Below, piece after piece: positions 29,582 to 50,980 of a DNA stretch of 64,000 nt. Every line of letters begins with the position of its first letter. Positions within the stretch are counted from its first letter, which is position 1. This DNA comes from Octopus vulgaris (lineage: Eukaryota), in assembly GCA_951406725.2 (NCBI GenBank), contig OX597823.1, forward strand, positions 43,462,001 to 43,526,000, read 5' to 3'. The notes below the pieces were generated by a model. The model searched no databases. It was not told the origin of the DNA and was given only the letters and a program-made list of their open reading frames with translations. Both the position numbers and the translations under genes were made by a program.

Positions 29582-30166
29582 TTTTCTACTCTAGAAACAA
29601 GGCTCGAAATTTTGGGGGAGGGGACCAGTCGATTAGATCGACCCCAGCACGCAACAGATACTTAATTTATCGACCCCGAAAGGATGAAAGGCAAAGTTGA
29701 CCTCGGAGGAATTTGAACTCACAATGTAAAGACAAACGAAATACCGATTTCTTTACTACCCACAAGAGGCTAAACATAGAGTGGACAAACAAGGACATAG
29801 AAAGGGATTAAGTCGATTACAACGACCTCAGTGAGTAACTGGTACTTAATTTATCGACCCCGAAAGGATGAAAGGCAAAGTTGACCTCGCAGGAATTTGA
29901 AATCACAACGTAACGGCAGGCGAAATACCTATTTCTATTTCTTTACTACCCACAAAGGGTTAAACACAGAGGACAAACAAGGACAGACAAACGGATTAAC
30001 TCGATTATATCGACCCCAGTGCGTAACTGGTACTTAATTTATCGACCCCGAAAGGATGAAAGGCTAAGTTGACCTGGGCGAAATTTGAACTCAGAACGTA
30101 GCGGCAAACGAAATACCGCAAAGCATTTCGCCCGGCGTGCTAACGTTTCTGCCAGCTCGCCGCCTT
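29582..30166 (-). mobile_element. Nested/tandem SINE family A array; two units carry a Tx1-like tail
   Basis: Three cores (TTTATCGACCCCGAAAGGATGAAAGGC); only the rightmost keeps a complete head; junctions near 29746 and 29929. Confidence 0.9.
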
Positions 30167-33100
30167 AATACGACGTAATCTTAAAATACAAAATACGTTG
30201 TCTGTGTGTGTGTCTTCTATACACAGCCAAATCTCTGAAACAATCTGTACTATACTTGAGTTATATGAATCATTTGACTTCGGAAATAATAATACGGTTT
30301 TGGTTTATTTCTTTTTATTAAAAATAAATAATATTGCTTTTTATATATAATAAAGATTCATTTCTTCAAACCGTTTCAAACGCTACCTGTGTCTAGCGTT
30401 CTGACCTAGTAACTAAGTAACCAGCTATTTACACACACACACGTATGTATACATCATTACAATTGTGGCGATTTCTGATTAAAAAAATAATTTCTAAAGG
30501 TATATGTGTGTGTATATATGTGTATTAGTATATATATATATATTTATACTTATGTATGTGCATACAAGACGCACGCATGGAACTTACGGGCGTTGAGTTG
30601 CTTAATTACTTCGTAACTTCTACGGATTAAAAGTACAATGTATGTATATATATATGTGTGTGTGCATATATGTACTAATGTATGTGCGCGCACACACACA
30701 CACACACACACACACACACACACACACACTATGTATACATCATTACTGATGTGACGATTTCTGATAAAAATAATTTCTAAATGTATATATATGTGTGTGT
30801 GTGTGTGTGTGTGTGTGTGTGTGTGTGTGTGTGTGTGTAGGTATATACAAATAATAAGTCCTGGAGTTGATTTCTTCGACTAAAACTGCTGTACCAGCAT
30901 GGCCGCGGTGAATTGATTAAAACACGTAAAAGAGTAAAAGCGTATATAATAATATATGACTCATATTATATAATAATATATAAACAATTGACAGAAAAAA
31001 GATGGGCCAACCGCTGGGAATTGAACACCGTTTTCGGTCAGTTGTTCAGGTTTAGTCGCTTTATATAAATAATATATAATTATAGTTATTATTAAAAAGG
31101 ACCTATGTATGTCGCTCTTTTCCATAATTTGCAGTCTTTGGGTTGTTTACAAACTTATAAATTTACATACTAGATTAAAATTATATATATTTATGCATAT
31201 ACATACTAGATTAATATATATATAAATATGTATACTAGACGAAAATCATCTAAAATCATTTCAGCAGGTTAAAGTTGGCTGAAATTGATGACAGGGCCAT
31301 GTGGTTGAATGGGTGCGTACGGAGCCATGTAAGCATTGATGTCGTGTTCAGTTCGAAGTGGGTCGTCGTATCTTTTTTCGGTTAATCAACTAGGTTTAGT
31401 CGCTTTAAATGCAGTATAAATAAGATATAATATATAAAATATATAATCATAGTCATTATATATATATATATTAACCCATACATACACACACACATATATA
31501 TGTATATATACATATACATATATAAGTAAATACATACATATATATTTGTCAACGTGTATAAATGAGTGTGTATGAGTGTGTGTATCCAAACATTGACATA
31601 TAAATGTATGCATGTAAATGCATACATACATAAGCATGTGTTTATGAGTATGGATGTGGAAACTAGGCTTCTGCATATATGTGTACTGGTATGTGTATAA
31701 GTATGTGGGGGTGGGGGCATAAAGGTGCGTGTAATTTGATCATTTTAAAAAAATACACGCAATCTCTTTCTCTCTCTCTATCTATCTATCTATCTCTATC
31801 TCTCGCACACACACACACATGCAAGTATATACATACATACTCATCGAGAAAAACGTCTATACACAACACGTCATCAAAAGTGTGCATTGTATGACTTGAA
31901 GGCATAAAAATTATTAAAACGTAAGCAATACGCAAGCCGAGACTGAACACTGCAACACAGACACGCATGCGCACAGGGAATCCATTCAGATTGTTTTCTG
32001 TTTTCTCCACATTCACTATGTTTATTACAGCTGACTCAGCATGTTGCTAACAATAAAATTATCAAGACGTCCAATCCCATGAGCTTCCAATCTTATTAGA
32101 CTTTTCATATAACGGCTGCCGTTACAATGAAACGTTACGACAATTCTAATAATAATAATAATAATGTAAAAGAAAAAAAGATACTAGATTTATCCAATTC
32201 GAATAGGTTCTTCTCTCCCATTACTATTTAGTTTCATTCTTCTTCTTTCTTTCTTAACTTCTTTATTGGCTTCTTTTATTTCCCTCAACAGTGTGTCAGT
32301 CTTCATTTTTTTTTCTTACGTGCACGCAGAGTTGCATATATGTCTGTTTATGTGCATGGAACTTGGATGCATGTATTTGAATCTCTGTGCGTGTAAGAGT
32401 GTACAGTATACGCATATTTATCTGTGTGTGTGTATGTGTGCATGCATGTATGGACATATATGCGTGCATGTAAACTACTCTCAAACGTATACCTGATTTT
32501 ATGCAGCTAAATAAAGAGTAATATATATGTATATATGTGTATATATATATGTATATATATATATGTATATATATGTATATATATATATGTATATATATCT
32601 CTCTCTATATATATATGTATATTTATATATATGTATGTATGTGTATATATATATATATATATATATATATATATATATATATATATATATATATATATAT
32701 CAAAGAGTCATATATGTGTGTGTGTGTGTGGAATCGCGTGCGTGAGTGTATGAGAGACACTGTGGAGGCAATTATATATGAATATGAGCGCGGACGTGCG
32801 TGCCTGTGTGTGTATGAGTGCGTGTGTGTATACACATATGTATACATATATCTATATGCGTGTGTGGGTGGCGATGTGTATGTAGACATATATATTTTTG
32901 TGTGAGTGTATGAGTGTGTTGAGGTGTGAGTGAGAGAGAGAGAGAGAAAGTTAGAGAAAGAGCAAGAGAGAGTGTGAGGGAGTTGGTATATTACCGTATC
33001 AAGAATGGAATTGATATGCCCGATTATATACTATTATCAAAATATTAATACTTAACACACCCATACACGCACACACACATATTATGTGTATGTTCACATA

Positions 33101-48700: not shown

Positions 48701-50729
48701 TTCATGATAAAATTATTTTAGCATTTTATACTTAGCCCTATTTTCCTTATATATATATATATATATGTGTGTGTGTGTGTGTGTGTGTGTGTGTGTTTGT
48801 GTGCATACACATTCACAAAACACTCAAAAATTCCTGTATCTAAGCTATATGTATTTATACCTGTACACACATATGTGTATACATATAATGAATGTGTGTT
48901 TGTGTGTAGACAAATTAGGATAAGTTGTTCAATATAAACGATGTTAGAGAATGTATTCAACTGAATGGGAATTAAGGATCGAAAAATCGAAAAAGCACCC
49001 CACGAAACTCCCTAAAATTAGTCGAAGCATAAACGTATCGGTAATCGGTGATTCAATCGTCCAGCAAGTTTTAAATTCATATTTCGATTCATACCAGTGG
49101 CTTTGTGATCGCGTTTCAGTTTCAAATTAGCTTCATGAGTATGATACCATTGATATTGTTCAAATTAATATACACACATGCGCACATACCTACATACACA
49201 CACACACACACACATACATACATACATACATACATACATAATACATATATACAGAAAGACAGACATATATGCATGTATACCAACCATATTCGACGCTTCC
49301 AAAGTTCGAGCACACACACGCACATATATATACATACATGTATATATATATATATATATATATATATATATATATATATATATACGATGTACATATACCT
49401 CTATATCTGTATTTATCGATTAATATACATATGTATATATATATATTTATTAATATACATTATATATATATATATATATATATATATATATATACATATA
49501 CATACACTTATTTGTGTGTATGTAGGTATAGATACATACATATATGCATGTATGTATACATATATGCATGCATATATATATATATAAATGGATGCAAGTA
49601 TATATACATACATACGTACATACACTTATGTATGAAAGTAAATTTATTAATACTTGTTTTATGTATGTTATACTATCGAAAATTAATTTGAAATAGAACT
49701 CCCTCCAGGTATCCTGTTTATATGCATATATTTCAAGGTGGGGGTGTATAAATGTACGCGCGCACACACATGCACACACAACGCTCGAGCACATACACCC
49801 ACACGTGGATTGATAGATAGATAGATAGATAGATAGATAGATAGATAGATAGATAGATAGATAGATAGATAGATAGGTAGATAGATAGATAGATAGATAG
49901 ATAGATAGATAGATAGATAGATAGATAGATAGATGCATACATACATACATGCACACACAACGCTCGAGCACATACGCCCACACGTGGATTGATAGATAGA
50001 TAGATAGATAGATAGATAGATAGATAGATAGATAGATAGATAGATAGAAAGACACACAGGCAGACATACAGACAGACAGACAAATAGATAGATAGATAGA
50101 TAGATAGATAGATAAATAGATAGATAGATAGATAGATAGATAGATAGATAGATAGATGCATGCATACATACATACATACATACATACATACATACATGCA
50201 TGCATTCATACATACATACACACATACATACATACATACATACATACATACATACATACATACATACATACATACATACATACATACATACATTCTTAAC
50301 AACATAGATGTATATGCCGATACCTAATTTAGATTTAATATAATTGAACTAGATTGTAGAAATGCATTTTACTTGGAATGAAGCTTAAAACAGTTATCAC
50401 TAAAGTTAATTTATCCTTGACCTACAAATATTTACAAACCTGGTCTCACGCAATTATATTCGTAAGCATTTTTAATTAATATTTAATTAACAGAATATAG
50501 CCCCCCAGCCACATAAACTCCAACGCAAACTTAATGGTTAGTTCCCGGCTTTAGTTGTTTGCTCTCCTGTGTTATAACAGTAACATATATACAAGCAACA
50601 ATCACTAAAAACACATATATAAATATATGTATATACAACCCTGCGTTTACTACCAAACTAACACAGCTTTTGTGGGGTGGAGAGAGAAAAGCGATCTCAG
50701 TTTTTGTTTAGCAATATTTTTGATGTGTA

Positions 50730-50980
50730 GGGCGGTGAGCTGGCAGAATCTTTAGCATCCGTTTGTCTGTCTTTGTTTGTCCCCTCTGTGTTTAGCCACT
50801 TGTGGGTAGTAATGAAATAGGTATTTCATCTGTTTTTACGTTCTAAGTTCAAATTCCACCGAGGTCGACTTTGCTTGGGTCGATAAGTTAAGCACCAGCT
50901 GCGTACTGGATTTGATCCAATCGCCTGCCCCCTTCACATCGCACAAAATTTCGAGCCTTGTGCCTAGGCTATAGTAGAAA
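50730..50980 (+). mobile_element. SINE family A with a ~60-bp Tx1-like tail piece inside its head
   Basis: Head GGCGGTGAGCTGGCAGAATC, insert about 50760-50819, then GGTATTTC...GTTCAAATTCCACCGAGGTCGAC and the ordinary tail. Confidence 0.8.

What the first reader, a model, noticed from the sequence alone, without database searches (positions are those of the whole stretch)
29735..50830. Tx1-tailed SINE joins other SINE copies at one fixed site in the tRNA-like head
Seen: three junctions (near 29746, 29929 and 50819) put the tail end GAAAT(A) directly before (C)GGTATTTC, the 3' strand of the head hairpin GAAATGC-loop-GTATTTC. At 50760-50819 only a ~60-bp tail piece sits in an otherwise ordinary SINE, with a few host bases missing. 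Established: many Tx1-clade endonucleases are sequence-specific for tRNA/snRNA genes, other transposons or microsatellites. Inference: the SINE targets its own family, building nested head-truncated arrays like 29582-30166. Alternative: one ancestral chimera amplified as a composite unit.
Basis: partly seen in the sequence, partly recalled or inferred. Interest (0 to 1): 0.75.

Follow-up and report, generated by a model that had tools for sequence, protein, structure and literature searches.

The report
SINE that targets its own head
A short mobile repeat with over 100,000 copies in this animal genome repeatedly sits at one fixed spot inside the start of its own relatives, forming chains of 184-base units, likely because the bases trailing its RNA pair with that spot and so steer each new insertion.

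Summary
Confirmed and extended. The three junctions are real. Genome-wide, 30,976 of 80,556 exact tails run into GGTATTTC. Of 184 tail-to-SINE junctions sampled, 164 lie at this head site and 12 at a second site (AGAA[A/T]CG) favoured by a sister subfamily. Independent insertion is shown: 223 double-headed sites, with young copies inside older heads and duplicated target bases. A single ancestral chimera is refuted. The tail is shared with L1/Tx1-group LINEs of this genome, one of them in the window.

The 'tRNA-head-specific endonuclease' idea is weaker. Copies in unique DNA also land on GGTAT(TT), some carry element-derived GG(T), and no sampled LINE ends at GGTAT. Most likely the read-through RNA flank (…GAAAUA-GGUAUUU) pairs with the nicked DNA, so the target is inherited from where source copies sit (about 55%).

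Most junctions have only one head, and how they form is unresolved: head replacement, template switching or copying of whole arrays. About one in six adjacent unit pairs look like duplicates. No empty orthologous site was seen. New variant of a known kind.

The parts
30118..30164 (-). SINE head, first 47 nt (GGCGGCGAG..., A-box-like, 5' arm of the GAAATGC hairpin); only head of the array
29930..30117 (-). tailed unit 1 (GGTATTTC, B-box-like, body, LINE-type tail, ends GAAATA-GAAATA)
29746..29929 (-). tailed unit 2, 184 nt, ends GAAAT-C
29583..29745 (-). untailed host unit, ends ...CTAGAGTAGAAAA; its first 13 nt GGTATTTCGTTTG equal those of unit 1 (variant T seen in 9 of 183 junctions), a possible duplication around a two-unit insert
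   Evidence: duplication is inference
30173..30182 (-). 5' copy of outer target duplication AAGATTACGT
29566..29575 (-). 3' copy of outer target duplication AAGATTACGT
50731..50757 (+). 5' part of SINE head, stops at TTTAGCA
50758..50819 (+). tail-only piece in place of 20 head bases; 5'-truncated insert with target deletion, or internal deletion of a composite (undecided)
50820..50979 (+). untailed host unit from GGTATTTC
47291..47532 (-). fourth tailed copy, ends in (TA)n, not at the head site
22761..23909 (-). 5'-truncated L1/Tx1-group LINE (zf-RVT end of ORF2, 3' UTR, tail homologous to the SINE tail) inside (TATC)n

Best explanation
A tRNA-like SINE carrying an L1/Tx1-group LINE tail inserts into the heads of its own relatives just before GGTATTTC, likely because its RNA reads on past the tail into GGUAUUU and these bases pair with the nicked target to prime copying. 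Shown: fixed junction, independent insertions with target duplications, the same GGTAT(TT) preference in unique DNA, and a sister subfamily with a different site. Inferred: (1) one copy landed at this site, so its Pol III transcript ends ...GAAAUA-GGUAUU(U); (2) the LINE enzyme nicks with loose specificity and primes best where 5-7 bases pair with that flank; (3) SINE heads match the flank fully and are abundant, so new copies inherit the same flank and the target perpetuates itself; (4) because insert and host share the head, the 5' end usually joins by homology and the host head is replaced, so each event adds a head-less 184-nt unit; multi-unit RNAs and local duplication lengthen some arrays.
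For: 30,976 of 80,556 exact tails run into GGTATTTC. TAG/TAA tails: 152 junctions at this site, 1 at the second; CAA tails: 6 and 7 (p 2e-8). In unique DNA 84 of 146 TAG/TAA flanks start GG against 8 of 48 CAA (p 7e-7). Stepwise match to GGTATTTCG in 137 unique flanks: 0.66, 0.88, 0.87, 0.87, 0.78, 0.49, 0.52, then background at C and G. L296, L142 and L013 have GG or GGT on the 3' side that the 5' target copy lacks. The 3' duplicate is closer to the motif than the 5' one in 14 cases against 3 (72 anchored of 205 tried, p 0.013). No GGTAT start at 30 of 30 TATC-family LINE ends or 42 of 42 other LINE-type ends. 223 double-headed sites; in 30 read, 26 have an 11-22-nt duplication, 15 of them sharing non-reference bases; host heads are 21% diverged against 6% for inserts (18 of 21), and 9 of 30 sit after a tail, where homologous joining is hard. 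In coded organism E the junction/tail depth ratio is 0.013 against 0.47-0.50 in B, C, D. Precedents: R1Bm and SART1 pairing (PMC7265360, passages), L1 priming from 4 matched bases (PMC3649969, abstract), R1 5' joining by upstream homology (PMC2718515, passages).
Against: The direction test is fragile: 11:3 (p 0.057) and 14:7 (p 0.19) with other anchors, 9:4 (p 0.27) for TAG/TAA tails alone. Most unique-site duplications carry GGTAT on both sides, which an endonuclease motif explains equally. Three LINE-type ends (L324, L326, L345) sit at the second head site, so a LINE can carry such a target itself, and a GGTAT-specific partner may be unsampled. The predicted hidden duplication in single-headed composites with untailed hosts was not found (sharing 0.11 vs 0.10 and 0.19 vs 0.19 at unit positions 10-20). 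Only 11 of 183 junctions have four T's, so the RNA 3' end is inferred, not seen. SINE sites are used 24-fold more than other GGTAT sites (80 of 183 vs 39 of 1,253), more than 5-7 bases explain. No empty orthologous site was found.
Confidence: 0.55

Rival explanations
1. A sequence-specific endonuclease of an unsampled Tx1-type partner nicks before GGTAT (or the hairpin), and the SINE simply borrows it; a second partner serves the AGAA site.
For: Sister LINE groups here have fixed targets: (TATC)n in 30 of 30, a GTTACAATC repeat in 5 of 42, the second head site in 3. Sharp boundary: target bases -4..-1 match the tail end only 0.19-0.33. SINEU/Tx1-Mar precedent (PMC4494074, passages).
Against: 0 of 72 LINE-type ends start with GGTAT although this SINE type has over 100,000 tails. 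Element-derived GG(T) at some junctions. One tail type uses GG-, TA- and AG-starting targets (84, 21, 11 of 146).
Confidence: 0.25
2. True insertion into genomic heads is rare; most junctions arise on RNA, by the reverse transcriptase switching from one SINE RNA at GGUAUUUC onto the 3' end of another, or by copying composite and multi-unit transcripts from many source loci. This can coexist with the best explanation.
For: Only 5 of 64 composites ending in an untailed unit show a classical duplication (by eye); 223 double heads against about 31,000 junctions. Composite heads look like the insert's (17 AC:6 TC; untailed solo copies 8:12; p 0.03). No hidden duplication. Outer duplications flank whole arrays in 16 of 29. 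Mantel r 0.26, p 0.058 between insert and host distances.
Against: Hosts are more diverged than inserts (0.109 vs 0.058, 49 of 60; 0.092 vs 0.075, 17 of 25 for one host type). Outer duplications of composites are more decayed than those of solo tailed copies (14/212 vs 25/866, p 0.014). Old hosts carry near-perfect young heads (L239, L180, L299).
Confidence: 0.3
3. One ancestral chimera was amplified as a composite unit.
For: The junction is uniform; most arrays have one head.
Against: Hosts belong to several 3'-end types; host pairwise distance mean 0.235 in 60 composites and at least 0.10 in 25 of one type; duplications share locus-specific bases; two registers with 184- and 216-nt periods.
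Confidence: 0.03
4. Arrays are satellite-like and grow by unequal exchange or slippage after a first junction.
For: Adjacent tailed units are closer than random pairs (median 0.089 vs 0.110); 19 of 119 share two or more rare variants against about 2% of random pairs. SINE-derived satellites are known (PMC10702118, passages).
Against: 70 of 119 adjacent pairs share no rare variant; it does not explain the motif at unique sites or the double heads.
Confidence: 0.1

Closest known systems
SINEU-3 / Tx1-Mar of crocodilians (Kojima 2015, PMC4494074, passages read)
   Same: SINE mobilised by Tx1-type LINEs, preferring a site in an abundant repeat; sequential tandem insertions; independence shown from truncated copies.
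   Different: There the target is a Mariner transposon and heads come from U snRNA; here the target is the SINE's own tRNA-like head, two subfamilies use two sites, and no partner LINE was seen at the main site.
R1/R1Bm and SART1 target pairing (PMC7265360, PMC2718515, passages and section 14 read; Anzai 2005 not held, known from citation only)
   Same: Downstream target sequence on the RNA aids precise priming; off-target copies match the target by 4-9 bp and can carry downstream target bases; upstream homology gives seamless 5' joins; tandem arrays.
   Different: Those are autonomous LINEs with specific endonucleases and fixed host-gene targets; here a non-autonomous SINE appears to carry a self-derived, switchable target.
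L1/Alu poly(A) priming, snap-velcro model (PMC3649969, abstract read)
   Same: Four or more matched bases at the primer end shape insertion sites; Alu nesting in Alu A-tracts is recalled, not read.
   Different: The pairing sequence here is a complex non-A motif from the element's own head.
SINE-derived satellites and Dip/B1 multimers (PMC10702118, passages read)
   Same: Arrays of units shorter than the SINE.
   Different: Explained there mainly by recombination; here arrays are short, dispersed in tens of thousands, and tied to insertion junctions.
Octopus tRNA SINEs OK/OR1/OR2 and central-domain SINE superfamilies (named in PMC4758252, PMC4824008)
   Same: Likely the same kind of element; an octopus host is my guess from recalled sequence likeness and the 2.8-Gb size (PMC13282606), not tested.
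   Different: No sequence comparison was possible; no self-targeting was described in the passages read.

Membership tests
tRNA-derived SINE | Pol III A and B boxes / tRNA-like head | tested here: inconclusive
   A-box-like TGGCAGAAACG and B-box-like GTTCAAATTCC are visible and the head folds into hairpins (z -2.3), but ARAGORN and Rfam find no tRNA.
tRNA-derived SINE | short, non-coding, high copy, target duplications | tested here: met
   about 230 nt; 128,460 exact tail motifs in three variants; duplications of 9-22 nt in 63 of 110 solo copies, null 7%.
tRNA-derived SINE | 3' tail shared with a LINE | tested here: met
   closest to a low-copy LINE group ending GTCCCCTCTATGTTT(A/G)GCCCC(C/T)TGTGGGCAATAAAGAA.
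tRNA-derived SINE | transcribed by Pol III | not testable with these tools
   no raw RNA reads laid.
Tx1 clade (partner LINE) | two ORFs; ORF2 APE-RT-zinc knuckle; L1 group | tested here: met
   best solved relative human L1 ORF2p E 1e-53 against R2 1e-19.
Tx1 clade (partner LINE) | RT tree places it with Tx1/Keno/Kibi rather than other L1-group lineages | not tested
   no named Tx1 reference came up.
Tx1 clade (partner LINE) | target preference for repeats or microsatellites | tested here: met
   (TATC)n in 30 of 30; other fixed targets.
endonuclease-directed target-specific SINE (SINEU type) | over 20% of copies flanked by one repeat | tested here: met
   38% exact; 152 of 306 TAG/TAA tails.
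endonuclease-directed target-specific SINE (SINEU type) | partner LINE shares the target | tested here: inconclusive
   met for the second site (3 LINE-type ends); not seen for GGTATTTC in 72 ends; sample incomplete.
central-domain SINE superfamily (Meta, CORE, V, Deu, Ceph) | shared central domain | not tested
   consensus sequences are in figures not held.

The most novel reading that the evidence does not exclude
A SINE can reprogram where a borrowed LINE enzyme inserts it through the few bases that trail its own RNA. The target is then a heritable trait set by where the source copy landed, not by the protein: one subfamily switched to GGTATTTC in one lineage (nearly absent in coded organism E), another uses AGAA[A/T]CG, and self-targeting became a positive feedback that built tens of thousands of 184- and 216-nt arrays.
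Probability: 0.4. Interest if true: 0.8.

Novelty: new variant of a known kind. Interest (0 to 1): 0.62.

Why it matters
It gives a natural test, with over 100,000 events, of how much target choice in non-LTR retrotransposition comes from RNA-DNA pairing rather than the endonuclease. It suggests how Tx1-type elements switch targets so often, and offers a route from dispersed SINEs to tandem arrays. If the flank alone redirects insertion, Tx1-group enzymes would be partly RNA-steerable. In practice, such composites would inflate SINE family counts in automatic repeat libraries.

Tried and rejected
Hairpin search with a 7-nt loop: wrong loop length, no SINE hit. Search for a LINE with the exact SINE tail 21-mer: only 184 sites, mostly SINE indels. 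A pattern for one candidate LINE end found nothing. The LINE remnants in L281 and L254 had no usable 3' end. Atlas, homolog and cluster look-ups gave no clade name. Empty-site test with four coded runs: contigs break in the repeat and none spans the array, so no verdict. Hidden-duplication test: not met for untailed hosts. Head divergence did not track host divergence (rho 0.12, n 45, including some misaligned heads). Tail folding is no better than shuffles. A CpG-made four-T terminator at the junction is rare (11 of 183) and was dropped as the general RNA end. Earlier scan findings: none returned.
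Full report
Observation. The window lies at G000:C10:43462001-43526000 in a 2.8-Gb animal genome. An octopus is my guess from recalled SINE likeness and the size given in PMC13282606; it was not tested. The minus-strand array 29583-30164 is one head, two tailed units and one untailed host unit, with junctions at 29929 and 29745 and an outer duplication AAGATTACGT. At 50758-50819 a tail-only piece replaces 20 head bases before GGTATTTC. 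A fourth tailed copy ends in (TA)n.

Genome-wide fixity. The exact tail GTGGGTAGTAAAGAAAT occurs 80,556 times, and 30,976 of these run into GGTATTTC; reversed controls gave 3 and 0. Two variants add 24,334 (TAA) and 23,570 (CAA). I mapped 398 tail ends not selected on downstream bases, out of 508 held; the other 110 came from loci selected on the junction and were set aside. Most are from the first 11 Mb of contig 1. Of these, 214 run into non-SINE DNA and 184 into a SINE: 164 at GGTATTTC (head position 47), 12 at AGAA[A/T]CG (position 14) and 8 elsewhere. TAG/TAA tails use position 47 (152 against 1); CAA tails use both (6 and 7; p 2e-8). Arrays show 184- and 216-nt periods accordingly.

Independent insertion. 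A pattern for host head, then GTATTTCGTC, then a new head found 223 sites. In the 30 loci read (two overlap), 26 have a tail ending in an 11-22-nt repeat of the 5' target. The first 11 bases are partly forced by the pattern, but 15 share non-reference bases on both sides, some common subfamily variants and some locus-specific (L093, L105, L115, L121). Host heads are 21% diverged against 6% for inserts (18 of 21), and 9 of 30 inserts sit after a tail. L089 is a tail-only insert with a 17-nt duplication sharing a rare base, though a deletion is possible. Hosts in 60 ordinary composites are heterogeneous and more diverged than the unit before them (0.109 vs 0.058; 49 of 60), partly because several host subfamilies are pooled; for one host type the gap is 0.092 vs 0.075 (17 of 25, p 0.03). 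A single origin is excluded.

The tail donor. Window 22761-23909 is a truncated LINE whose end aligns with the SINE tail. A full copy has two ORFs and an APE-RT-zf-RVT ORF2 closest to human L1 among solved structures. All 30 copies read run into TATC. A second, low-copy group has a still closer tail. Three of its ends (L324, L326, L345) sit at head position 14, five at a GTTACAATC repeat (three of the five are near-identical and may be duplicates), and none of 42 starts with GGTAT (L326). The name Tx1 rests on architecture and target preference; no tree with named references was possible.

What sets the target. In unique DNA, duplications begin right after GAAATA and the target itself starts with the motif: among 55 anchored TAG/TAA copies the 5' copy has G 34, G 34, T 44, A 38, T 33, while positions -4..-1 are random (72 anchored of 205 tried). 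The stepwise match to GGTATTTCG stays above background through GGTATTT and falls at C (137 flanks), as an RNA ending GGUAUUU would give. L296, L142 and L013 carry GG or GGT only on the 3' side. The 3' copy is nearer the motif in 14 cases against 3 (p 0.013), but other anchors gave 11:3 and 14:7, and TAG/TAA alone 9:4, so this is suggestive only. SINE GGTAT sites are occupied 24-fold more often than other GGTAT sites in 94 ten-kb stretches chosen for holding a tail (80 of 183 vs 39 of 1,253), so longer pairing, open chromatin or array copying must add to the short motif. In contigs of four coded runs, depth at the junction over depth in the tail is 0.50, 0.47 and 0.47 for organisms B, C, D and 0.013 for E, whose flank differs at 28 of about 360 bases. 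Contig depth is a rough measure, but it hints that the site was adopted in one lineage while the tailed SINE is older.

What is unresolved. Only 5 of 64 composites ending in an untailed unit show a classical insertion (by eye: L089, L139, L186, L254, L295). The rest have one head, which resembles the insert's (17:6 vs 8:12), and show no hidden duplication. Their outer duplications are more decayed than those of solo tailed copies (14/212 vs 25/866) and not different from solo hosts (25/228), which favours an older host whose head was overwritten. RNA template switching and copying of composite transcripts remain open. 19 of 119 adjacent tailed pairs share two or more rare variants (random about 2%), so a minority of units are duplicates or came on one RNA. 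No empty orthologous site could be read.

Comparison with print. Target-biased SINEs mobilised by Tx1 are known (SINEU, PMC4494074, passages). Pairing of downstream RNA with the target is known for R1Bm and SART1 (PMC7265360, passages), R1 (PMC2718515, passages and section 14) and L1 (PMC3649969, abstract). SINE multimers and satellites are known (PMC10702118, passages). PMC13282606 (first third of the text and passages), PMC4758252 and PMC4824008 (passages) do not describe this in what I read. Nine searches listed no paper on a SINE targeting its own head, judged from titles and abstract starts. The library lacks most subscription papers and Repbase Reports, and I read no supplements; the repeat library of PMC13282606 may already hold these composites.

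Verdict. Self-targeting is real (about 0.9). RNA-flank pairing is the most likely cause (0.55), an unsampled specific endonuclease the main rival (0.25). New variant of a known kind; interest 0.62.

Noticed in passing
window 16850-17482 (-): Three untailed SINE copies head to tail, separated by ATT-rich spacers; untailed copies elsewhere end ...AGAAAAG and their duplications often start AATAT or ATTAT, a parallel 3'-end/target match.
   Followed up: partly
L330, L334, L337, L348-L351, L365: L1/Tx1-group LINE ends joined to one unidentified repeat starting GTTACAATCA(T/A)CTGAAATG.
   Followed up: no
L347, L362, L371; L329, L333, L341, L346: Further LINE-type ends with fixed downstream sequence (TTCTTAGTG(C/T)AAGTTT...; TTGAT).
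   Followed up: no
L363, L366, L373, L377, L123: Short 3'-UTR remnants with ...TGTCTGTCC before the tail, the closest match to the SINE tail; candidate donor family, no ORF seen nearby.
   Followed up: partly
window 29930-29941; L074, L094, L114, L189: GAAATA doubled at the junction, as slippage at the start of reverse transcription would give.
   Followed up: no
L089, L131: Minor third junction at head position 62 (GGTA then CGTTCTG or TGTTCTG).
   Followed up: no
L009, L011, L014, L282; L080: Tailed copies recurrently followed by GGTACTGGCAATG of another repeat, and an AGAA-type copy inside another SINE head (GTGTGGTAAGAAG...).
   Followed up: no
window 47941-48660 (+): Open frame with a weak GIY-YIG match (E 0.0017, below cutoff), perhaps a Penelope-like remnant.
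   Followed up: partly
window 37373-37786 (+), 45971-46588 (+), 59171-59935 (-), 61906-63092 (-): Open frames that look like transposase or LINE remnants by recalled motifs; no Pfam match.
   Followed up: partly
window 15835-15972: Two SINE heads back to back on opposite strands.
   Followed up: no
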